Below are positions 1 through 45,689 of a stretch of DNA of 45,689 nucleotides, in pieces; the first letter of the stretch is position 1; each line of letters starts with the position of its first letter. The DNA lies in the IMG/VR virus record IMGVR_UViG_2711768009_000006; one strand, 5' to 3'. Source of the stretch: a virus. Its lineage: Duplodnaviria > Heunggongvirae > Uroviricota > Caudoviricetes. Under the pieces are notes generated by a model. The model searched no databases, was not told the DNA's origin, and saw nothing but the letters and a program-made list of their open reading frames with translations. A program made the position numbers and the translations under genes.

Positions 1-94
1 TTTATGTGAAACCGCCTGCGGGCGGTTTTGTCGTTTATGGAGCGTGAGGAATGGGTAAAGGCAGCAGTAAGGGGCATACCCCGCGCGAAGCGAA
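1..94. repeat. Terminal redundancy copy 1, identical to 45596-45689 (circular contig wrap-around)
   Basis: Direct comparison of the two window ends; the J start codon at 51 recurs at 45646. Confidence 0.97.
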
Positions 95-10313: not shown

Positions 10314-10337
10314 NNNNNNNNNNNNNNNNNNNNNNNN
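10314..10337. other. Assembly gap or masked bases (24 N)
   Basis: Run of 24 n characters immediately left of the telO palindrome. Confidence 0.99.
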
Positions 10338-10361
10338 CCCATTATACGCGCGTATAATGGG
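10338..10361. other. telO-type telomere resolution palindrome (protelomerase target)
   Basis: Perfect 24-bp palindrome CCCATTATACGCGCGTATAATGGG, which contains the recalled N15 telO core CCATTATACGCGCGTATAATGG; about 180 bp upstream of telN. The expected left flanking arm is replaced by the N run. Confidence 0.75.
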
Positions 10362-10540: not shown

Positions 10541-12430
10541 ATGAGCAAAGTAAAAATCGGTGAATTAATAAACTCACTTGTTAGCGATGTTGAGTCAATA
10601 GATAACTCTGACCGTCCTCAAGGGGAAAAAACAAAAAAAATAAAGGCTGTTGCATTAAAATTTAAAAATGCATTATTTAATGATAAGCGAAAGTTTAGGG
10701 GGAAAGGATTAGAAAAAAGAATTACAGCCAACACATTCAATGCCTATATGAGCAGGGCCAGAAAACGGTTTGATGATAAACTTCATCATAGCTTTGAAAA
10801 AAATATACATCGCCTATCTGAAAAGTATCCTTTATATAATGAGGAGCTATTGTCATGGCTTTCTCTACCTGCTGCCGATATTCGCCAGAGAATGTCAGCT
10901 TTACAGGCAAAATTAAAATTAATTCTCCCTTTATCAGAAGATTTATCTAATATCAGAATTGGTGATAACAAAAGTCATAATAAGTTATTAAAATTATCAA
11001 ATAAATATAAAGAGTGGCAATTCGCCATATCTGATTTAACTAGCGATAACTGGAAAGATAAGCGCGATTATTTATATAAATTACTACAGCAAGGATCTGC
11101 CTTACTTGAAGAGTTGAATCAGCTAAAAGTTAACCATGAGATTCTCTATCATCTTCAACTAAGCCCTGCCGAACGCGCATCTATCCAGCAACGATGGGCG
11201 GACGTTCTGCACAATAAGAAACGTAACGTGGTGGTCATTGATTACCCTAAATATATGCAAGCTATTTACGATATTATAAATAGCCCTGCTACATTAAATA
11301 ATCTAAACACTCGTTCAGGTATGGCTCCTTTGGCATTTGCACTTGCTGCATTGTCAGGAAGACGAATGATTGAGATTATGTATCAAGGTACATTTACTGT
11401 TTCTGGTAAGTATACCGTTGATTTTTTAGGCCAAGCAAAAAAAAGAACTTCTGATGATATAACCAGAAAAATATATACATTATGCGAAGCAAAAACATTT
11501 GTTTATTTAATAAATGTACTTCGCTCATGCCCAGCAGCATCTGATTTTGATGATGTCGTTAAAGGTTATGGAGATAACGACACACGCTCTGAAAACGGAC
11601 GGATTAATGCCATATTAGCAAAGGCTTTTAACCCGTGGGTCAAATCATTTTTCAAAGATGACCGCCGTGTTTATAAAGATAGTCGTGCTATTTATGCCCG
11701 TATTGCGTATGAAATGTTTTTCCGCGTAGATCCTCGTTGGAAAAACGTAGATGAGGATGTTTTCTTTATGGAAATTTTAGGCCATGACGATGAAAACACT
11801 CAATTACACTATAAGCAATTCAAGCTGGCCAACTTCTCAAAGACATGGAGGCCAAATACTGGAAACGAAAATACCAGGCTGGAAGCATTGCAGCAGCTTG
11901 ATGACGAAATGCCAGGATTCGCCAGAGGAGATGCCGGGGTTCGTCTGCATAACACAGTTAAGCAGCTGGTAGAGCATGACCCCTCTATAAAAATCACGAA
12001 CAGCACTCTAAGAGCATTCAAATTTAGCCCTACAATGATTAGTCGATACCTGGAATTTGCTGCTGATGCTCTGGGGCAATTTGTTGGCGAAAATGGACAA
12101 TGGCAGCTGAAAATAGATTCTCCAGAAATCGTTATGCCTGACGAAGAAGAGCTGGAAGCAATACCTGAACAGACGGATGAATTATCAGAGGATGACGATC
12201 TGGATGACGACGAAATTGAGATAGAGGAAGAGGAAGAGAGCGTAGAAGAACAGCAACCGCCCGCGCCTTCTTCACCTGTATCTAAGCCGGTATTTAAGCC
12301 TGTGAGAAATATTGGTGATGGCTCATACGTTGTTGAGTTTCATTATAATGGCCAGAATTATGCTTGGTCCGGCAGTGCAAACAGCCCTATATCAGCAATG
12401 CAGTTAGCATGGCTGACATATTTCGGATAA
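10541..12430 (+). CDS. telN: Protelomerase TelN (telomere resolvase)
   Basis: 629-aa ORF with SD AGGAGAGG; sequence (MSKVKIGELIN..., RSGMAPLAFALA..., EILGHDDENTQLHYKQFKLANFS...) matches recalled N15 TelN; adjacent to telO; acidic C-terminal tail. Confidence 0.9.
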   Translation: MSKVKIGELINSLVSDVESIDNSDRPQGEKTKKIKAVALKFKNALFNDKRKFRGKGLEKRITANTFNAYMSRARKRFDDKLHHSFEKNIHRLSEKYPLYNEELLSWLSLPAADIRQRMSALQAKLKLILPLSEDLSNIRIGDNKSHNKLLKLSNKYKEWQFAISDLTSDNWKDKRDYLYKLLQQGSALLEELNQLKVNHEILYHLQLSPAERASIQQRWADVLHNKKRNVVVIDYPKYMQAIYDIINSPATLNNLNTRSGMAPLAFALAALSGRRMIEIMYQGTFTVSGKYTVDFLGQAKKRTSDDITRKIYTLCEAKTFVYLINVLRSCPAASDFDDVVKGYGDNDTRSENGRINAILAKAFNPWVKSFFKDDRRVYKDSRAIYARIAYEMFFRVDPRWKNVDEDVFFMEILGHDDENTQLHYKQFKLANFSKTWRPNTGNENTRLEALQQLDDEMPGFARGDAGVRLHNTVKQLVEHDPSIKITNSTLRAFKFSPTMISRYLEFAADALGQFVGENGQWQLKIDSPEIVMPDEEELEAIPEQTDELSEDDDLDDDEIEIEEEEESVEEQQPPAPSSPVSKPVFKPVRNIGDGSYVVEFHYNGQNYAWSGSANSPISAMQLAWLTYFG

Positions 12431-12475: not shown

Positions 12476-12640
12476 CTACCTCGCCTGCCCCTTTTCGTCC
12501 TCATCCAACTTTCTGATGGCCGTAGAATCAATACCCGCCGCCATACACACATCAGATGCAACAAACCACGGTTCGCCGTTAATCATCACTACACGAACCT
12601 GATGCTCTTCCTGAAAGGAAAAGACTGCTAACGCGCTCAT
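12476..12640 (-). CDS. Short Bro-N-like domain protein (54 aa, probably truncated)
   Basis: Below the ORF-track size cutoff; translation MSALAVFSFQEEHQVRVVMINGEPWFVASDVCMAAGIDSTAIRKLDEDEKGQAR resembles the N-terminal half of Bro-N/antirepressor domains; start ATG overlaps the upstream stop (ATGA). Confidence 0.45.
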   Translation of the reverse strand: MSALAVFSFQEEHQVRVVMINGEPWFVASDVCMAAGIDSTAIRKLDEDEKGQAR

Positions 12641-12870
12641 TCAGCCTCCTTATCGTGCAGCAATTGCGACGAGAGCGATGCTGAATAACCCTGTGCTTCG
12701 TGTGTTAGCTCACACGCAATTTGAAGGAGTTTCCCTGCTTCTGAGAGATAAATCGACGCCTCACAACTGGAGATTGTCCGATGGGCTGATGATACGAGCG
12801 CATAGACCTGAGCCAGACGTTCATCCAACGATTCCAGCAGGCCAACAGTGTTCATTTTTACCTGATTCAT
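12637..12870 (-). CDS. Hypothetical protein (77 aa)
   Basis: ORF in the track; ATGA start/stop coupling with ORFs on both sides. Confidence 0.45.
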   Translation of the reverse strand: MNQVKMNTVGLLESLDERLAQVYALVSSAHRTISSCEASIYLSEAGKLLQIACELTHEAQGYSASLSSQLLHDKEAE

Positions 12871-13031
12871 GCAGCCACCTCGCGCACCGGAATACGGGCA
12901 GACAATACCAGGACAAACCGGCTGGCGAACTGGCGACGAGCTTCCCGTTCAGATGACGCGATGGTGGAAAGATGATGGATGTGTGACTTTTTGTCTGTGC
13001 GAACGATTGCCGCAAATTTGAATTTGAACAT
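12867..13031 (-). CDS. Hypothetical small protein (54 aa)
   Basis: Below the ORF-track cutoff; MFKFKFAAIVRTDKKSHIHHLSTIASS...; SD GGAG about 10 nt upstream; its stop overlaps the next start (ATGA). Confidence 0.4.
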   Translation of the reverse strand: MFKFKFAAIVRTDKKSHIHHLSTIASSEREARRQFASRFVLVLSARIPVREVAA

Positions 13032-13193
13032 GGTATGCACTCCGTTTAATTGGTCGTGCTACCACCAGAGTTCCTACGCTCTATATGGCGGTAGCCCAGA
13101 CGGGGGTAGGAATACCGGTAAACGAAGAAACCGGCCAGCTAAAAGCTGCCCCATCTGAGCCACCATAAATTTGGTGTACGCAGATTTTACACA

Positions 13194-13217: not shown

Positions 13218-13407
13218 GTGCGCTTCATTTACTCGGGTTCCTACGCCCGGCTACGGGATTTACCGTAGCGGAGTAAACTTTACCGTCAAAACGACGCGCA
13301 CGTCAATAATTTGCAAAGACATTTTACCCCGTGACCAGTCACGGGGACAGGTGTTTTTATAGTTTGCTTGAACGAGTGATCAGAAGTTGATCGTTAATCA
13401 AAGGCCA

Positions 13408-18876: not shown

Positions 18877-19473
18877 TCATCTACCCTCAACCATGAATGA
18901 TTTGATCGTTCCGACTATTTGGTGAACAAATTCAAGATCGCTTTTCCTGAAGATGGCGCGTTGTGAGTTTGTTCCATCCAGATAGTAATTTTCATCATCA
19001 AAACGGGCCAGGCGCTGGATAGTGATATTTCCTGCAGTATCACGAACCAGAACATCCTCGCCGGGGACCAGTTCCAGCGCAGAATCGACCAGGAGAAAAT
19101 CGCCTGGCTGATAGTTTCCCTGCGTAAGATTGCTGATAGTTAACGCATACACAGTATTGCGCTGGCTGATGAATGGCAGGAATCGCTCAGTATTTGGAAC
19201 CTGTCCCGGCTTCCACTCTTCATCCGGCCCACTTTCAGTTGTGCCAATAACAGGAATGCGATCAGGGTCATATTCTGTCCCATATAGCACCCAATGCACT
19301 GGCTTGCGTAAGCACTTAGCCAGGGCAATACCTATCTCCAGTGACGGCATTACGTCGCCACGTTCTAAGTTTTGGACGCCTGCTATAGAGATATCGACAG
19401 CCTCAGCAACTTCTCGCAACGTCAGCTTCATCTCTAAACGGCGTGCTTTCAGTCGTTCGCCTCGTGTTTTCAT
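18877..19473 (-). CDS. cB: Prophage repressor CB (CI/LexA-like)
   Basis: 198-aa ORF with N-terminal HTH (LTLREVAEAVDISIAGVQNLERG) and a C-terminal domain of CI-like size; divergent from cro with operators between. Confidence 0.88.
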   Translation of the reverse strand: MKTRGERLKARRLEMKLTLREVAEAVDISIAGVQNLERGDVMPSLEIGIALAKCLRKPVHWVLYGTEYDPDRIPVIGTTESGPDEEWKPGQVPNTERFLPFISQRNTVYALTISNLTQGNYQPGDFLLVDSALELVPGEDVLVRDTAGNITIQRLARFDDENYYLDGTNSQRAIFRKSDLEFVHQIVGTIKSFMVEGR

Positions 19474-19495: not shown

Positions 19496-19511
19496 TTATA
19501 GCTGGCTATAA
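19496..19511. promoter_or_regulatory. Putative CB operator O1 (perfect 16-bp palindrome)
   Basis: TTATAGCTGGCTATAA in the cB-cro intergenic region. Confidence 0.6.
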
Positions 19512-19521
19512 AATTTATTTA

Positions 19522-19537
19522 TTATAGCTGGCTTTAA
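19522..19537. promoter_or_regulatory. Putative CB operator O2 (imperfect copy)
   Basis: TTATAGCTGGCTTTAA, 26 bp centre-to-centre from O1; a perfect TATAAT lies at 19553-19558 just before the cro ATG. Confidence 0.55.
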
Positions 19538-19564
19538 TTATTGTTTATTGTTTATAATAACAAC

Positions 19565-21546: not shown

Positions 21547-21965
21547 TGGCAAAGGCTTTTACACCAGAACAGAGGGAAGAACTGAATAAACAAATTGTGG
21601 AACTCGTGCGCCTGAATGGACGAGGAACGGTTAGGCAACTTGCGGATGAAACTGGTATTAGCCGGTGTGCTGTTAGTCGTTTATCAAGAGAGCTTGCTGC
21701 CAGTGGTGATTTGTATATCTCTGGCTCCGGGATATTTCTGTCTGCACAAGCACGCAAGGACTGGCAAAACGCCCGTAAAAAACTATCAAGAGTAAAGCCG
21801 AAGAAATCGGTAGTTGTTGATCCTGACCTTATCTGGTCATTACCTGATGGAGAAATACGTCGTTATGACAGGCGCTTGAACATGATTTGTCACGATTGTC
21901 GGAAGAGCGAAGTTATGCAGCGTGTGTTGGCGTTTTATCAGGGAAATTTTCAGGAGGTGGCGTAG
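21546..21965 (+). CDS. Putative HTH DNA-binding protein (139 aa)
   Basis: ORF with HTH-like segment TVRQLADETGISRCAVSRLSREL. Confidence 0.5.
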   Translation: MAKAFTPEQREELNKQIVELVRLNGRGTVRQLADETGISRCAVSRLSRELAASGDLYISGSGIFLSAQARKDWQNARKKLSRVKPKKSVVVDPDLIWSLPDGEIRRYDRRLNMICHDCRKSEVMQRVLAFYQGNFQEVA

Positions 21966-22941: not shown

Positions 22942-23268
22942 ATGGCGCTGACAGCTGCAGAACGGCAAAGGAGACGCAGGGAACGGTTGAAGAAGGAAGG
23001 CACATCAAGACGGGACTGGATTCTGGAACCTGACGAGCTACGTATGTTGGGGGAAATTTGTGTATTGCGTAGACCGGGACGAGTTCCATATTCAGAGAAT
23101 GAAGTCATCGGTCTGCTGATCAGGAAAAACTATAAGGAGCTGCAGAAGCAGCTATCTACTACTTGCCCGCGATGTGGTCAGAAAATGCCTGTTTCAGAAT
23201 GTATTTTTGATGGTGAAGGCTCATGTCACCTTACAACTACGAGGCTGAAACTTGTGCTCAAAGTGTGA
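22942..23268 (+). CDS. Hypothetical protein with C-terminal Cys cluster (108 aa)
   Basis: ORF with SD AGGAGG; CPRCG ... C ... C pattern. Confidence 0.45.
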   Translation: MALTAAERQRRRRERLKKEGTSRRDWILEPDELRMLGEICVLRRPGRVPYSENEVIGLLIRKNYKELQKQLSTTCPRCGQKMPVSECIFDGEGSCHLTTTRLKLVLKV

Positions 23269-23469
23269 CTGGTCACGGAATGATAAATAAACAAAAAGGC
23301 ATAGTTTTTGAAATGATGAGAAAACGAAGCGAAAAGAGTTTTTCTTATGGTGATGATGGGCTTCTGTAGGTGGTTGAGTGAGGCGTAGGAAGAGAACATA
23401 AGTATCGGACTACAAAGCTATTAACCCTGTTAATCCATTGAAAGTTGGCTATAAAATTTGAGTTTTACC

Positions 23470-23485
23470 CTGTAATTTTATACAG
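23470..23485. promoter_or_regulatory. Putative LexA (SOS) box
   Basis: CTGT-aattttat-ACAG fits CTGT-N8-ACAG with an AT-rich spacer, 24 nt upstream of the 23510 ATG; a partial CB-operator-like sequence TGGCTATAAAATTT lies at about 23446-23459. Confidence 0.6.
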
Positions 23486-23509
23486 TATCAAATAACCTTT
23501 TTTAATTAA

Positions 23510-23728
23510 ATGGTATTAGATTCAATGACTGAAGCATCTGTATCAACTCTTGAAGAACTCGGATCAAACCTAAAAGACATCGACGCCGTTTTGGATCTGG
23601 TTAGCGTTGCTCTGGCTTCTCCCGAAGCTAGCTTGCATCTTGGCGAGATTTCACGGCTTGTTAGTATGTCGCGGGAGATTGCTCAGAATTGCCAACAAGC
23701 GATTGCTGTGGAGTGTTTACATCATTGA
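23510..23728 (+). CDS. Small acidic protein, candidate SOS-inducible antirepressor
   Basis: 72-aa ORF directly downstream of the LexA box and operator-like half-site; no SD; function inferred from context only. Confidence 0.4.
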   Translation: MVLDSMTEASVSTLEELGSNLKDIDAVLDLVSVALASPEASLHLGEISRLVSMSREIAQNCQQAIAVECLHH

Positions 23729-23771
23729 TACACACCCCGCCCTTCTGGACGGGGTAGTGAAAAGTGATTAA

Positions 23772-24059
23772 TCAATAGACGGCATTAATATTAATTGTTG
23801 CGCCACATGCTTGGGCATATTTTGATAAAGTTTTCATGCTTGCCCCTAAAGGATTGCTTTCCAGGCGGCTGATGGCGGACGGGCGCAATCCCATTCGTTC
23901 TGCCAGAGCTGACTTCGTTAAACCTGCTCTTTCCCTCATTTCGTATAACATTTCGACCATCTCCAGTTCTTTATCGGCCTCTTCATATCCTTTGATAGCT
24001 TCTGGAGTGTTGAGTAGTTTTTCCTTTACTTCGTTAAACGGGATGCCTTTTGCTTTCAT
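23772..24059 (-). CDS. HTH (XRE-family) antitoxin, HigA-like
   Basis: 95-aa HTH protein (LTKSALAERMGLRPSAISRLE); start overlaps the toxin stop (ATGA); sits downstream of the toxin as in higBA. Confidence 0.75.
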   Translation of the reverse strand: MKAKGIPFNEVKEKLLNTPEAIKGYEEADKELEMVEMLYEMRERAGLTKSALAERMGLRPSAISRLESNPLGASMKTLSKYAQACGATININAVY

Positions 24060-24370
24060 CAGTTCATCTCCTTCAGGCGAGTTCTGGCGATTTCTATAGC
24101 CTTTACTGGTGTTTTCTGTGTCTTTTTTACAAATGCATGCAATAGATAAATTTCGTTACCAGTCGCGTAGGCGTATAGCGTTCTTGCGATGTTTTTATCC
24201 CCTACTCTTAGTTCAAAGAGTCCTCCGCCTATTACACGGCTATGGGGCATCTTAAGTTTGTTTCCCTCTTTCTCCAGTCGTTCAATTAGCCTGGTCATGC
24301 GACCTCGCAGATCGTCTGGTAGTTCAAGCAGTTCATCCAGTGCTGCAGGGTGGGTTATCACGTTAAACAT
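24059..24370 (-). CDS. RelE/ParE-superfamily toxin (HigB/Gp49-like)
   Basis: 103-aa ORF from the ATG with perfect SD GGAGG (MFNVITHPAALDEL...); size, basic character and pairing with an HTH partner. Confidence 0.75.
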   Translation of the reverse strand: MFNVITHPAALDELLELPDDLRGRMTRLIERLEKEGNKLKMPHSRVIGGGLFELRVGDKNIARTLYAYATGNEIYLLHAFVKKTQKTPVKAIEIARTRLKEMN

Positions 24371-24533
24371 ATTATAGCCTCCTAACGCGCAAAATACACC
24401 AAAACGAGAAAACAAAGCAAATATAAAATTTCACCAAAAAGTGAAAATAACACTGGATGTGTTCTTTTGGCAGAGTTACAGTTCGTGTTGTTGAGGGGGA
24501 TAACCCACTAACTATATGAATTTCGAGGATATT

Positions 24534-28302: not shown

Positions 28303-29163
28303 ATGAAAGAGTTGCAAAAAATTAATTCAATAATGGAACGATTAATTGCTCTTGAGCTTAAGCTGGCCGATTGCGGAAAACTGTGTGCTGAAAAGCAAAA
28401 TGAGCTTTACCGGGAATTTGTTACAATCGTAAGTGAGCTGATGCCAATTGTTAATAACTGCCTAATGACATCCATATTTTTTAATGTCGATGCTACTACA
28501 TCCAGAAAATTTACTGTGAAAATTCAAGAAAGAGTTTCTGGTAGTGTGACAAGAGAGATGGCTGAACAGTTTGTGGCAATGAGTAATAAAACAAAAAGAA
28601 AAAAGGCATTGCTTGTAACAGTAAATCAGCTTTCAGGGCGCGTTGACTTTCAGGTCAGACAGGGTGGGCGTGTACTGGTAAACGATGCGTTCGTTGGACG
28701 TTGCTTTAGTCCTTACTCGATGAAATATGATGTTGATGCAGATGATCAGGATATCAGCATTTCCTGGAAATCTGAGACAGCAGGGATTGTATTAACAGCA
28801 GAGTTGTTGAGTGATGATAAAAATGATGGCCAGCATCATTTGGACGAAAAAAATCATATTTCTGAAATTTGTATGAAGCCACGTAGTGGAATGACTTTAT
28901 TGTCGCGAACTCTTGCTGCTGGCTTTTCTGCAACGGAGAAACGTGTGCTTCTGGTAGTGCCTGAAGATGCAGATATTCGTCCACTGAATGGCTGTGATGT
29001 TATTAGTGCAAAAACATTGCATACCCGCATCATGCCTGTACCGGATGTGGTCATCATTGATGATATTGAGAAATGCAAGTCTGTTTCCTCAACTGCCACA
29101 ATCAAACGAATTTTACGTTGTAGCACGTCGGCTGTTGTATTCCAGAAGCAGTTACATAACTAA
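28303..29163 (+). CDS. Hypothetical cytoplasmic protein (286 aa), cassette gene 1
   Basis: ORF from the ATG with strong SD AGGAGG (MKELQKINSIMERLIALELK...); AT-rich codon usage unlike the lambda-like genes; no recognised motif. Confidence 0.6.
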   Translation: MKELQKINSIMERLIALELKLADCGKLCAEKQNELYREFVTIVSELMPIVNNCLMTSIFFNVDATTSRKFTVKIQERVSGSVTREMAEQFVAMSNKTKRKKALLVTVNQLSGRVDFQVRQGGRVLVNDAFVGRCFSPYSMKYDVDADDQDISISWKSETAGIVLTAELLSDDKNDGQHHLDEKNHISEICMKPRSGMTLLSRTLAAGFSATEKRVLLVVPEDADIRPLNGCDVISAKTLHTRIMPVPDVVIIDDIEKCKSVSSTATIKRILRCSTSAVVFQKQLHN

Positions 29164-39095: not shown

Positions 39096-39836
39096 ATGCC
39101 TGTACCAAATCCTACAATGCCGGTGAAAGGTGCCGGGACCACACTGTGGGTTTATAAGGGGAACGGTGACCCTTATGCGAACCCGCTTTCAAACGTTGAC
39201 TGGTCGCGTCTGGCTAAAGTTAAAGACCTGACGCCCGGCGAACTGACCGCTGAGTCCTATGACGACAGCTATCTCGATGATGAAGATGCGGACTGGACTG
39301 CGACCGGGCAGGGGCAGAAATCTGCCGGAGATACCAGCTTCACGCTGGCGTGGATGCCCGGAGAGCAGGGGCAGCAGGCGCTGCTGGCGTGGTTTAATGA
39401 AGGGGATACCCGTGCCTATAAAATCCGCTTCCCGAACGGCACGGTCGATGTGTTCCGCGGCTGGGTCAGCAGTATCGGTAAGGCGGTGACGGCGAAGGAA
39501 GTGATCACCCGCACGGTGAAAGTCACCAACGTGGGACGTCCGTCGATGGCAGAAGATCGCAGCACGGTAACAGCGGCAACCGGTATGACTGTGACGCCTG
39601 CCAGCACTTCGGTGGTGAAAGGGCAGAGCACCACGCTGACCGTGGCATTCCAGCCGGAAGGCGCAACCGACAAGAGCTTCCGTGCGGTGTCAGCGGATAA
39701 AACAAAAGCCACCGTGTCGGTCAGTGGTATGACCATCACCGTGAAAGGTGTTGCTGCAGGCAAGGTCAACATTCCGGTTGTATCCGGTAATGGTGAACTT
39801 GCTGTGGTTGCAGAAATCACCGTCACCGACAGTTAA
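39096..39836 (+). CDS. V: Major tail tube protein V
   Basis: 246-aa [22 protein letters not shown]..., lambda gpV-like; SD GAGGA. Confidence 0.95.
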
Positions 39837-39851
39837 TCCGGAGAGTCAGCG

Positions 39852-40274
39852 ATGTTCCTGAAAACCGAATCATTTGAATATAACGGTGTGAGCGTCACGC
39901 TTTCTGAACTGTCAGCCCTGCAGCGAATTGAGCATCTCGCCCTGCTGAAACGACAGGCAGAACAGGCGGGATCCAGTCTCAATCGACAGGTGAGCGTGGA
40001 AGATCTCGTCAGAACCGGTGCTTTTCTGGTGGCGATGTCCCTGTGGCATAGCCATCCGCAGAAGACAAAGCTGCCGTCCATGAATGAAGCCGTTAAACAA
40101 ATTGAGCAGGAAGTGCTTACCACCTGGCCCACAGAGGCAATTGCTCAGGCTGAAAATGTGGTAATGCGTCTGTCCGGTATGTCTGAGTTTGTTGTGAATG
40201 ATGCACCTGAACAGGCAGAGGACGCCGGGCCTGCAGAGCCTGTTTCTGCGGGAAAGTGTTCGACGGTGAGCTGA
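39852..40274 (+). CDS. G: Tail assembly chaperone G
   Basis: 140-aa MFLKTESFEYNGVSVTLSELSALQRIEHL..., lambda gpG-like. Confidence 0.92.
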   Translation: MFLKTESFEYNGVSVTLSELSALQRIEHLALLKRQAEQAGSSLNRQVSVEDLVRTGAFLVAMSLWHSHPQKTKLPSMNEAVKQIEQEVLTTWPTEAIAQAENVVMRLSGMSEFVVNDAPEQAEDAGPAEPVSAGKCSTVS

Positions 40275-45595: not shown

Positions 45596-45689
45596 TTTAT
45601 GTGAAACCGCCTGCGGGCGGTTTTGTCGTTTATGGAGCGTGAGGAATGGGTAAAGGCAGCAGTAAGGGGCATACCCCGCGCGAAGCGAA
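45596..45689. repeat. Terminal redundancy copy 2, identical to 1-94 (includes the first 44 nt of J)
   Basis: Direct comparison with the window start. Confidence 0.97.

What the first reader, a model, noticed from the sequence alone, without database searches (positions are those of the whole stretch)
23420..23728. Small gene behind a LexA box plus CB-operator-like half-site: candidate SOS-triggered antirepressor
A canonical-looking SOS box (CTGT-N8-ACAG, 23470-23485) overlaps the likely -10 of a promoter for a 72-aa acidic ORF, and 11 bp upstream lies a 14-nt exact copy of part of the cB/cro operator. In N15, induction is known to work through a LexA-controlled antirepressor rather than repressor self-cleavage. 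Inference: this ORF is the induction switch under dual LexA/CB control.
Basis: partly seen in the sequence, partly recalled or inferred. Interest (0 to 1): 0.55.

Follow-up and report, generated by a model that had tools for sequence, protein, structure and literature searches.

The report
LexA-controlled AntC antirepressor of N15-like prophage
This small gene is the counterpart, in an N15-like linear-plasmid prophage of E. coli, of the known SOS-controlled antirepressor AntC that switches phage N15 from dormancy to lytic growth, so it is a well-supported but ordinary member of a known system, and the proposed extra control by the phage repressor is not supported.

Summary
The sequence features are real. 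A strong LexA box (23468-23487, core CTGT-N8-ACAG) is the only one in the window. It overlaps the -10 of a conserved promoter (TTGAGT-17-TACAGT) in front of a small acidic ORF. The ORF is the orthologue of the unannotated N15 ORF behind N15's own LexA box, which I take to be antC (51-56% identity, same gene neighbourhood). All 70 antC-type loci examined keep a LexA box at the same distance from the start codon, and PY54 keeps one in front of a dinI-antA pair. The real start is the second ATG (23525), giving 67 aa rather than 72. The window's CB repressor lacks the LexA-type catalytic Ser and Lys, so it needs an antirepressor. AntC is predicted to be a two-helix hairpin. It is a paralogue of the small immA protein, which I take to be AntA. 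The 14-nt copy of operator OR3 is also real (23446-23459), and the 16-mer 23439-23454 matches OR3 at 13 of 16 positions. However, it breaks an invariant operator position. It is absent from sister phages with an identical CB, and it differs from the inferred ancestral sequence by only two substitutions. Published EMSA shows that CB does not bind half-sites. Verdict: a new member of a known kind. Dual LexA/CB control is unproven and unlikely.

The parts
23468..23487 (.). LexA (SOS) box CCCTGTAATTTTATACAGTA; core CTGT-N8-ACAG at 23470-23485
   Evidence: 20.5 bits, unique in the window, 0 of 60 shuffles reach it. A box is kept at -56 to -60 from the ATG in 68 loci with 34 distinct upstream sequences, and also in L069 and L070.
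23458..23463 (+). Putative -35 hexamer TTGAGT of the antC promoter
   Evidence: It lies 17 nt upstream of TACAGT. The same layout (TTGCGG/TTGCGA/TTGCCA, 17 nt, TACAGT) is found in all clades (alignment A2). The simple consensus scan did not flag it because it matches 8 of 12 and the threshold is 9. The assignment is inferred, not mapped.
23481..23486 (+). Putative -10 hexamer TACAGT, inside the right half of the LexA box
   Evidence: These columns are invariant in alignment A2. The overlap with the box means that bound LexA would occlude RNA polymerase. This is an inference.
23525..23728 (+). antC coding sequence: 67 aa plus stop, acidic, predicted two-helix hairpin
   Evidence: tblastn to N15 39604-39807 gives 5e-17. 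It matches phrog_6301 at 6e-34. The start is fixed by the stop/CTG/CGG at the upstream ATG in relatives. Against pG749_3 there are 18 synonymous and 14 nonsynonymous codon differences. The AF2 model has pLDDT 92, with helices 3-31 and 33-66.
23510..23524 (+). This is most likely 5' leader or ribosome-binding region, not coding.
   Evidence: the pG749_3/PhiR46_1 clade reads ATG GTA TGA here, and phiKO2 and KpLi5 have CTG or CGG. The conserved GGTA motif lies 11-14 nt before the real ATG.
23439..23454 (.). CB-operator-like 16-mer TGAAAGTTGGCTATAA. It matches OR3 at 13 of 16 positions: the right half is perfect and the left half matches 4 of 7. It ends 3 nt upstream of the -35.
   Evidence: It scores 13.5 bits with the operator PWM and ranks 5th in the window, behind four of the five expected operators (OR3, OR2, OR1, OL2). 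It occurs only in the window's antC sub-clade. Function is unproven.
23446..23459 (+). 14-nt exact repeat of 19503-19516 (OR3 positions 8-16 plus 5 nt of flank)
   Evidence: Genome-wide chance is P ~0.033.
23731..23759 (.). GC-rich hairpin between antC and the convergent toxin-antitoxin operon. It is a probable weak bidirectional terminator with no clear U-run.
   Evidence: -22 kcal/mol, z = -3.1. N15 has a stronger hairpin at the same place. The terminator scan did not flag it.
18877..19473 (-). cB prophage repressor (198 aa), the inferred target of AntC. It has an HTH_3 domain and a degenerate S24-like domain.
   Evidence: Pfam gives HTH_3 at 3e-11 and Peptidase_S24 at 21.3 bits, below the cut-off. 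LexA Ser119 aligns with Thr and Lys156 with Gln. It is 78% identical to N15 CB.
19496..19560 (.). OR3 (19496-19511), OR2 (19522-19537) and OR1 (19545-19560) operators in the cB-cro spacer
   Evidence: They score 22.3, 20.7 and 15.1 bits with a PWM trained only on N15 and phiKO2 operators. OR3 is identical to N15 and phiKO2 OR3.
12637..12870 (-). Paralogue of antC in the immA locus (77 aa; homologue of N15 gp31, which I take to be AntA)
   Evidence: It matches phrog_6301 at 1.7e-36 and phrog_10889 'anti-repressor' at 1e-18. hhalign of the AntC alignment against the gp31 alignment gives probability 92.7%, E 4e-7.

Best explanation
The window is a complete N15-like telomere phage-plasmid of E. 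coli. The gene at 23525-23728 is its antC, a 67-aa acidic two-helix-hairpin antirepressor.

In the lysogen, host LexA sits on the box at 23468-23487. The box covers the -10 and the spacer of the antC promoter (TTGAGT-17-TACAGT) and keeps the promoter shut. DNA damage activates RecA and LexA cleaves itself, so antC is transcribed. AntC then binds the CB repressor, which cannot cleave itself, and takes it off OR and OL. That releases cro, Q and repA and starts lytic growth.

Shown here: the box, its uniqueness and strength, its universal conservation, the orthology and synteny with the N15 ORF behind N15's own box, the coding constraint, the fold prediction, and the loss of the catalytic dyad in CB. 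Inferred from N15 work (Mardanov & Ravin 2007, cited in PMC4488713, PMC3121763, PMC10432266 and PMC11652158): LexA binding, SOS inducibility, and AntC-CB binding.

The operator-like sequence upstream of the -35 is most likely a sub-clade-specific, AT-rich upstream promoter sequence. It drifted to resemble OR3's right half and is not a required CB site.
For: - Orthology: tblastn to N15 39604-39807 gives 56% identity, 5e-17, and the N15 ORF lies behind N15's box CTGTGTTTATATACAG.
- Identification of the N15 gene: N15 has only two strong LexA boxes, this one and one before the umuD-like gene 26.
- Synteny: the gene lies after the gene 46/47 homologues and before a convergent toxin-antitoxin pair, in N15, phiKO2, Klebsiella and Enterobacter relatives.
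- LexA box: 20.5 bits, unique in the window.
- Conservation: a box of 18.6-26.4 bits lies at -56 to -60 from the ATG in all 68 loci, which have 34 distinct upstream sequences. Two homologues at about 30-45% identity have one too. PY54 has one before dinI-antA.
- CB cannot self-cleave: the catalytic Ser is Thr and the Lys is Gln. The literature says N15/phiKO2 CB lacks the cleavage motifs (PMC4997575) and that the N15 repressor is non-proteolytic (PMC10432266).
- Family: phrog_6301, plus phrog_10889 'anti-repressor'. The family member P840 antA abolishes lysogenisation (PMC10612081).
- Structure and constraint: AF2 pLDDT 92. Purifying selection is indicated by 18 synonymous against 14 nonsynonymous codon differences.
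Against: - No experiment exists for this phage.
- The primary N15 paper (PMC1951935) could not be read, so the identity of the N15 ORF with antC rests on the box position, on secondary citations and on my recollection.
- The promoter hexamers are weak (8 of 12) and no transcription start site is mapped.
- AntC is only 51-56% identical to N15 AntC, while CB is 78% identical.
- There is no good Shine-Dalgarno sequence.
Confidence: 0.85

Rival explanations
1. One reading: antC is under direct dual control. LexA acts at the box, and CB acts at the operator-like site 23439-23454 just upstream of the -35. Full expression then needs both LexA cleavage and loss of CB occupancy, which would create a CB/AntC double-negative feedback.
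For: - The 14-nt exact match to OR3 has a genome-wide chance of P ~0.03.
- The 16-mer ranks 5th in the window with a PWM trained only on N15 and phiKO2 operators. It scores above the OL1 equivalent and within the range of the training operators (11.8-22.3 bits).
- P = 0.0125 for a site this good in the shuffled 155-nt spacer.
- Both window-lineage substitutions, and a third in LR883007 (14 of 16, 15.2 bits), move the sequence toward OR3.
- A strong right-half site also abuts the -35 in the divergent L069 (TGCAATAA), and a weaker one occurs in L063/L064.
Against: - Position 2 is G, whereas it is T in all ten experimentally bound operators (nine distinct sequences).
- The left half matches 4 of 7.
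- phiKO2 CB does not bind OR3 half-sites, and its minimal target is 18 bp (PMC4997575, section 3.3).
- The site is absent from pG749_3, YDC107_1 and PhiR46_1, whose CB is 100% or 99.5% identical. It is also absent from N15, phiKO2, and the Klebsiella and Enterobacter clades.
- Its presence tracks the antC allele, not the OR or CB allele.
- 0.77 sites of at least 13.5 bits are expected per genome by chance.
- It is centred near -46.5 and does not overlap the core promoter.
Confidence: 0.12
2. The operator-like 14-mer is a promoter element rather than a repressor site. It could be an AT-rich UP-like sequence for the LexA-controlled promoter. It could also be the -10 (TATAAA/TAAAAT, 23450-23457) of a weak second promoter. 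It would resemble OR3 because OR3's right half itself doubles as a promoter -10 in the cB-cro spacer.
For: - The segment lies at about -54 to -39, where UP elements act.
- All clades keep an A-tract and the columns T46, G47, T52, A53 here, whether or not they resemble an operator.
- In phiKO2, cro promoters overlap the OR operators (PMC4997575, section 3.5).
- TTAATC-16-TAAAAT gives 8 of 12, equal to the LexA-controlled promoter (read directly).
Against: - No transcription start data exist.
- The -35 candidates are poor.
- The scan tool did not flag any promoter here.
Confidence: 0.3
3. The ORF is an SOS-induced small protein with another role (for example a RecA/LexA modulator like DinI, or a cell-division inhibitor) and is not an antirepressor of CB.
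For: - There is no Pfam family and no structural match.
- Databases call every member 'hypothetical protein'.
- PY54 pairs the gene with a dinI-like gene.
Against: - It is the orthologue of the ORF behind N15's second LexA box, which I take to be antC. AntC acts against CB according to PMC4488713 and PMC3121763.
- It is a paralogue of the small immA protein that I take to be AntA.
- The P840 family member blocks lysogenisation (PMC10612081).
- The family occurs only in telomere phages with non-cleavable CB-type repressors.
Confidence: 0.04

Closest known systems
AntC of coliphage N15 (Mardanov & Ravin 2007, J Bacteriol 189:6333)
   Same: - Small acidic protein of 67-70 aa with the shared core D-x-DAVLD-x-VS...SPEASLH...RL..MSR...C.
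- Same position, between the gene 46/47 homologues and a convergent toxin-antitoxin pair.
- LexA box at the same distance from the ATG, overlapping TACAGT.
- CB-type repressor without the catalytic dyad, and an identical OR3 operator.
   Different: - Only 51-56% identical in protein.
- The -35 is TTGAGT rather than TTGCGG.
- The window's sub-clade has an OR3-like 16-mer upstream of the -35 that N15 lacks.
- N15 instead has a weak operator-like match (TTATATACAGTATTAA, 11.8 bits) over the right half of its LexA box.
- Gene 47 upstream is truncated in the window.
AntA of the N15/phiKO2 immA locus and 'AntA' of PY54/vB_YenS_P840
   Same: - Same protein family: phrog_6301, hhalign 92.7% (AntC against gp31) and 97.3% (family against PY54 AntA).
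- The proteins align collinearly with AntC, which is predicted to be a two-helix hairpin with the S-x-E/D-A-S motif at the turn.
- PY54 antA sits in the antC-like position behind a LexA box.
   Different: - The immA copy lies in the icd-antA-antB operon and has no LexA box. To my knowledge it is controlled by the processed CA RNA and premature termination (Ravin et al. 1999).
- PY54 antA is co-transcribed with a dinI-like gene.
Tum of phage 186 and GfoA/GfhA/GftA of Salmonella Gifsy prophages (LexA-controlled antirepressors)
   Same: The logic is the same. A non-cleavable repressor is inactivated by a small antirepressor whose promoter is directly repressed by LexA and lies outside the immunity region (PMC3121763).
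   Different: - No detectable sequence similarity, and these belong to different protein families.
- Tum carries a DinI-like domain.
- Membership of those families was not tested beyond the absence of Pfam or PHROG cross-hits.

Membership tests
N15-type AntC antirepressor | Sequence homology to N15 AntC over its full length | tested here: met
   tblastn gives 56% identity over 68 aa, 5e-17. There are 26 invariant columns in the 8-sequence alignment. It matches phrog_6301 at 6e-34.
N15-type AntC antirepressor | Conserved genomic position: right arm, after the gene 46/47 homologues, convergent with a toxin-antitoxin pair, upstream of the late methylase and lysis genes | tested here: met
   Annotation tables of N15, phiKO2, PhiR46_1, YDC107_1, KpLi5 and the plasmids.
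N15-type AntC antirepressor | Promoter overlapped by a LexA box | tested here: met
   The 20.5-bit box at 23468-23487 overlaps TACAGT. A box is conserved in 70 of 70 antC-type loci examined; PY54 has one before dinI-antA.
N15-type AntC antirepressor | Cognate prophage repressor is not self-cleaving | tested here: met
   The alignment with LexA and lambda CI puts Thr at LexA Ser119 and Gln at Lys156, with no Ala-Gly cleavage site. The S24 match is below the Pfam cut-off. This agrees with PMC4997575 and PMC10432266.
N15-type AntC antirepressor | Physical binding to CB and inactivation of it; RecA/LexA-dependent induction | not testable with these tools
   This needs a two-hybrid or pull-down assay, EMSA competition, and a deletion-plus-mitomycin-C assay. 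No multimer structure prediction was available.
E. coli LexA (SOS) regulon operator | 20-bp palindrome of the TACTGT-(AT)4-ACAGTA type with intact CTGT and ACAG cores | tested here: met
   It matches the consensus at 15 of 20 positions with both cores perfect. It scores 20.5 bits, within the 13-27 bit range of 21 genuine boxes (list recalled from memory).
E. coli LexA (SOS) regulon operator | Bound by LexA, with derepression on DNA damage | not testable with these tools
   Needs an EMSA and a reporter assay.
CB operator of N15/phiKO2-type telomere phages | 16-bp site with the invariant T-A-(N)10-T-A motif (PMC4997575) | tested here: not met
   In TGAAAGTTGGCTATAA, position 2 is G. A3, T14 and A15 are present.
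CB operator of N15/phiKO2-type telomere phages | Two recognisable half-sites (two-fold symmetry); half-sites alone are not bound | tested here: not met
   The right half matches 7 of 7 and the left half 4 of 7. [quoted passage not shown]
CB operator of N15/phiKO2-type telomere phages | Conserved in phages that encode the same repressor | tested here: not met
   pG749_3 and YDC107_1 have a 100% identical CB but carry TGAAAATTGACCGTAA, and no 16-mer in their antC upstream region scores above 6.9 bits.
CB operator of N15/phiKO2-type telomere phages | Bound by CB in vitro or in vivo | not testable with these tools
   Needs an EMSA or footprint with purified CB.

The most novel reading that the evidence does not exclude
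In this sub-clade of N15-like phage-plasmids, the 13-14 of 16 OR3-like site abutting the -35 of PantC is a newly evolved, weak CB operator. It arose from an already similar upstream sequence by two or three point substitutions. CB (perhaps helped by looping to OR/OL) would then damp antC expression until AntC begins to titrate CB. This would add a double-negative feedback that sharpens or delays SOS induction. It would also be a naturally occurring example of rewiring of the antirepressor switch between otherwise identical immunity types.
Probability: 0.12. Interest if true: 0.45.

Novelty: new member of a known kind. Interest (0 to 1): 0.25.

Why it matters
It assigns a function to a gene that every database record calls 'hypothetical protein', in a widespread group of E. 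coli, Klebsiella and Enterobacter phage-plasmids. It fixes the gene's start codon. It shows that LexA control of the right-arm antirepressor is universal in enterobacterial telomere phages. It also shows that AntC, the small immA protein I take to be AntA, and PY54 'AntA' form one family; AntC is predicted to be a two-helix hairpin, and the copies are wired to different inputs. This is useful for annotation and for predicting SOS or antibiotic inducibility of these plasmids. It does not change the known mechanism.

Tried and rejected
- **Primary N15 paper:** PMC1951935 is not held. The N15 gene identity therefore rests on the box position, secondary citations and my recollection.
- **Consensus scans:** the promoter/terminator scan flagged neither the antC promoter (8 of 12, below its threshold) nor the downstream hairpin.
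- **Pfam:** no family for AntC.
- **Fold search:** Foldseek of the pLDDT-92 model against PDB and BFVD gave no hits. A two-helix hairpin is uninformative for fold search.
- **Pairwise BLASTP:** AntC against the immA paralogue was not significant (E 0.13). Only profile methods show the relationship.
- **Single-sequence word-index search:** it found only close relatives. Exhaustive phmmer found 6 representative clusters, one of them a spurious repeat protein.
- **Operator copied from OR3 by recombination or gene conversion:** considered and rejected. Outgroups already carry TGGCTGTAT at the homologous position, and only two window-lineage substitutions are needed.
- **Link between the gene-47 deletion and the operator-like site:** considered and rejected. 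L020, L021 and L024 have the site together with a full-length gene 47.
- **The first ATG (23510) as the start:** considered and rejected.

Full report
**What the window is.**
The 45,689-nt window is a complete, circularly assembled N15-like telomere phage-plasmid with a 94-bp terminal overlap. The antC locus is 100% identical to E. coli plasmids such as pAH01-1, and 17 of 5,426 complete E. coli genomes carry the locus, always on plasmids. The window has the N15 gene order: partition genes, telN, immA, repA, cB, cro, Q, early genes, toxin-antitoxin pair, methylase, lysis genes, lambda-like structural genes.

**Checking the observation.**
All three sequence features exist at the stated coordinates.

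- *SOS box.* CTGTAATTTTATACAG lies at 23470-23485. It is one of two CTGT-N8-ACAG matches in the window, against 0.5 expected. I built a position weight matrix from 21 E. coli SOS boxes recalled from the literature (my own knowledge, approximate). With it, the 20-mer 23468-23487 scores 20.5 bits, in the range of genuine boxes (13-27). The runner-up in the window scores 11.6, and none of 60 local-composition shuffles reaches 20.5.
- *ORF.* The 72-codon ORF at 23510-23728 is present, and the 67-aa product is acidic (pI 4.5).
- *14-mer.* TGGCTATAAAATTT at 23446-23459 is an exact copy of 19503-19516. That segment is positions 8-16 of OR3 (TTATAGCTGGCTATAA, 19496-19511, identical to OR3 of N15 and phiKO2) plus five flanking bases. 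A match this long between the cB-cro spacer and anywhere else in the genome occurs in 3.3% of shuffles.

**What the gene is.**
tblastn finds the ORF in N15 at 39604-39807 (56% identity, 5e-17). This N15 stretch is unannotated and lies between genes 47 and 48. It sits 42 nt downstream of N15's own box, CCCTGTGTTTATATACAGTA. N15 has only two strong LexA boxes, this one and one before the umuD-like gene 26. The literature states that N15 induction is initiated by antC, a separate LexA-controlled gene whose product acts against CB (PMC4488713, PMC3121763, PMC11652158). It also states that the N15 repressor is non-proteolytic (PMC10432266). The primary paper (Mardanov & Ravin 2007, PMC1951935) is not held. 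The equation 'N15 ORF 39619-39829 = antC' therefore rests on these facts and on my recollection. I regard it as secure.

**Start codon.**
In the PhiR46_1/YDC107_1/pG749_3 clade the first ATG is followed by GTA TGA. In phiKO2 and KpLi5 the first ATG is CTG or CGG. The second ATG is invariant. The gene therefore starts at 23525 and encodes 67 aa, as PGAP and the phiKO2 annotation have it. The invariant GGTA 11-14 nt upstream is probably part of a weak ribosome-binding region.

**Comparative evidence for LexA control.**
I collected 68 loci with 34 distinct upstream sequences: N15, phiKO2, Klebsiella and Enterobacter phages and plasmids, and 52 IMG/VR contigs.

- Every one has a LexA box of 18.6-26.4 bits at -56 to -60 from the ATG.
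- Two more divergent homologues (about 30-45% identity) also have one.
- In PY54 the family member annotated antA follows a dinI-like gene behind GACTGTATACATATACAGTA.
- The promoter layout (TTGAGT, or TTGCGG/TTGCGA/TTGCCA, then 17 nt, then TACAGT) is kept throughout, and TACAGT is part of the box.
- The hexamers are weak (8 of 12), so the simple scan did not flag them. The promoter is inferred, not mapped.

**The repressor needs an antirepressor.**
The window's CB (18877-19473, minus strand) is 78% identical to N15 CB. It has an HTH_3 domain and a sub-threshold Peptidase_S24 match. In an alignment with LexA and lambda CI, LexA Ser119 aligns with Thr and Lys156 with Gln, and there is no Ala-Gly cleavage site. 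This matches what is published for N15 and phiKO2 CB (PMC4997575).

**The protein and its family.**
AntC has no Pfam family. It matches phrog_6301 (6e-34) and, more weakly, phrog_10889 'anti-repressor'. The 77-aa ORF at 12637-12870 (minus strand) in the window's immA locus, and its N15 homologue gp31, match the same two PHROGs. A profile-profile comparison of the two groups gives 92.7% probability, E 4e-7, over 53 collinear columns.

PY54/P840 'AntA' (87 aa) also joins the family (97.3%, E 2e-11). Its expression abolishes lysogenisation (PMC10612081). The naming of that small protein after N15 AntA supports my recollection that N15 antA is gene 31.

The family is narrow. There are six representative clusters among 1.84 billion proteins, one of them spurious. 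The 62 clusters found with a profile that carry an organism name are all Enterobacteriaceae, and none carries any name other than 'hypothetical' or 'uncharacterised' protein.

AlphaFold2 with a 32-sequence alignment predicts a two-helix hairpin (helices 3-31 and 33-66, pLDDT 92). The invariant S-P-E-A-S-L-H motif lies at the turn. Foldseek found nothing in PDB or BFVD. Against the pG749_3 allele there are 18 synonymous and 14 nonsynonymous codon differences, which is consistent with purifying selection.

**The CB-operator question.**
I trained a PWM on the nine distinct operators of N15 and phiKO2 that CB binds experimentally (sequences read; binding from PMC4997575).

- *Ranking.* In the window it ranks OR3 (22.3 bits), OR2 (20.7), OR1 (15.1) and OL2 (14.7) first. 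Next come 23439-23454, TGAAAGTTGGCTATAA (13.5), and 13357-13372 (13.2). So the site is more than a bare half-site: it matches OR3 at 13 of 16 positions and ends 3 nt before the -35.
- *Chance.* 0.77 sites of this score are expected per genome. The probability of one in the shuffled 155-nt spacer is 0.0125.

Several points argue against function:

1. Position 2 is G, whereas all bound operators have T there (the T-A-N10-T-A motif, PMC4997575). The left half matches 4 of 7.
2. phiKO2 CB does not bind OR3 half-sites and needs 18 bp (PMC4997575, section 3.3).
3. The site occurs only in the window's antC sub-clade. pG749_3 and YDC107_1 have a 100% identical CB, and PhiR46_1 a 99.5% identical one, yet they carry TGAAAATTGACCGTAA. 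N15, phiKO2, and the Klebsiella and Enterobacter clades have no site there.
4. Presence tracks the antC allele, not the OR or CB allele, and not the gene-47 deletion.
5. Outgroups already carry TGGCTGTAT at the homologous columns. Only two window-lineage substitutions (A to G, G to A), plus a third in LR883007 (14 of 16), are needed, so it is not a copied operator.

Some points leave the door slightly open:

- All of these substitutions go toward OR3.
- The divergent locus L069 has a strong right-half site (TGCAATAA) abutting its -35.
- N15 and the Klebsiella clades have a different operator-like match over the right half of the LexA box (10.6-13.1 bits).

I put direct CB control at about 0.12. 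A simpler route to CB influence needs no site. antC is the last gene on the same strand as cro-Q-genes 41-47, and no terminator is predicted in the 270 nt upstream of it. Read-through from the CB-repressed early promoter could therefore reinforce antC once CB is lost. This is inference only.

**Mechanism (most likely).**
In the lysogen, LexA occupies 23468-23487 and occludes the -10. DNA damage, acting through RecA*, leads to LexA cleavage and then to antC transcription and translation of the 67-aa hairpin. AntC binds CB, and CB leaves OR1-3 and OL. That allows cro, Q and repA expression and lytic growth. The steps from LexA binding onward are transferred from N15 and are not shown here.

**Comparison and novelty.**
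This is an orthologue of a characterised gene in a close relative of the model phage, so it is a new member of a known kind. It works like Tum of phage 186 and the Gifsy antirepressors (PMC3121763) but is unrelated to them in sequence.

Three points may be new, or at least are unrecorded in databases: the corrected start codon, the universal LexA box across more than 70 loci, and the single AntA/AntC/PY54-AntA family. I could not check whether the 2007 paper already noted the AntA-AntC relationship.

Interest is low to moderate (0.25).

Noticed in passing
window 12637-12870 (-), with 12867-13040 (-) and 12476-12640 (-): immA locus. It holds a 77-aa paralogue of AntC (the N15 gp31/AntA homologue, phrog_6301 at 1.7e-36), preceded by a 57-aa ORF in the N15 gene 32 (icd) position that matches transcriptional-repressor PHROGs. 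It is followed by a 54-aa remnant of the Bro-N 'Ant' protein (N15 gene 30 is 264 aa), so antB appears truncated in this phage.
   Followed up: partly
window 13357-13372; N15 28576-28591: A CB-operator-like 16-mer, TTATAGTTTGCTTGAA (13.2 bits). It is conserved at the homologous place in N15 (TTATAGTTTGCTTTAC, 15.1 bits). It lies just upstream of a hairpin (CCCCGTGAC-TGG-TCACGGGG) in the immA leader or promoter region. This may be a sixth genuine CB site controlling the immA anti-immunity operon.
   Followed up: partly
window 23223-23369: The gene-47 homologue upstream of antC is truncated by a deletion of about 87 bp relative to PhiR46_1, YDC107_1 and pG749_3. The distance from the end of gene 46 to the LexA box is 203 nt rather than 291 nt. 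The C-terminal remnant 'GAACATAAGTATCGGACTACAAAG' is still recognisable. Some IMG/VR relatives have the same antC allele with an intact gene 47.
   Followed up: partly
window 10314-10357: A run of 24 N (10314-10337) lies immediately before TTATACGCGCGTATAA and upstream of telN (10541-12430). This is the masked centre of the telRL/tos palindrome. The unmasked half scores 12.2 bits with the CB-operator PWM, purely because of its TATA-rich palindrome.
   Followed up: no
window 1-94 and 45596-45689: A 94-bp exact terminal direct repeat. The window is a whole replicon (about 45,595 bp) assembled as a circle with overlapping ends, although the prophage is expected to be a linear plasmid with hairpin ends.
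   Followed up: yes
window 23772-24415 (-); L015, L069, L071 (PY54): A toxin-antitoxin pair lies convergent with antC: a Gp49/HigB-like toxin (24059-24415) and an HTH antitoxin (23772-24059). Other clades, including PY54, carry HicA/HicB at exactly this position, so the slot next to antC is a swap site for toxin-antitoxin modules.
   Followed up: no
L071 (PY54 39250-39864); P840 ORF56-57: In the Yersinia telomere phages, the AntC-family gene (annotated antA) is the second gene of a dinI-like/antA pair behind a perfect LexA box. This recalls phage 186 Tum, in which antirepressor and DinI-like parts are fused.
   Followed up: partly
N15 21658-21677 compared with the window: N15 has a second strong LexA box (24.5 bits) before its umuD-like gene 26. 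The window has no second box above 12 bits, so antC is the only predicted direct LexA target in this phage.
   Followed up: no
N15 39570-39585; Klebsiella-clade loci (e.g. L047, L013): In N15 and the Klebsiella clades, a sequence that fits the T-A-N10-T-A operator motif (TTATATACAGTATTAA, TTATACAGTACATTAA; 10.6-13.1 bits) overlaps the right half of the antC LexA box and the -10. It may only reflect the TATA-rich LexA consensus. It would nevertheless be the place to look for CB binding at PantC in N15 itself.
   Followed up: no
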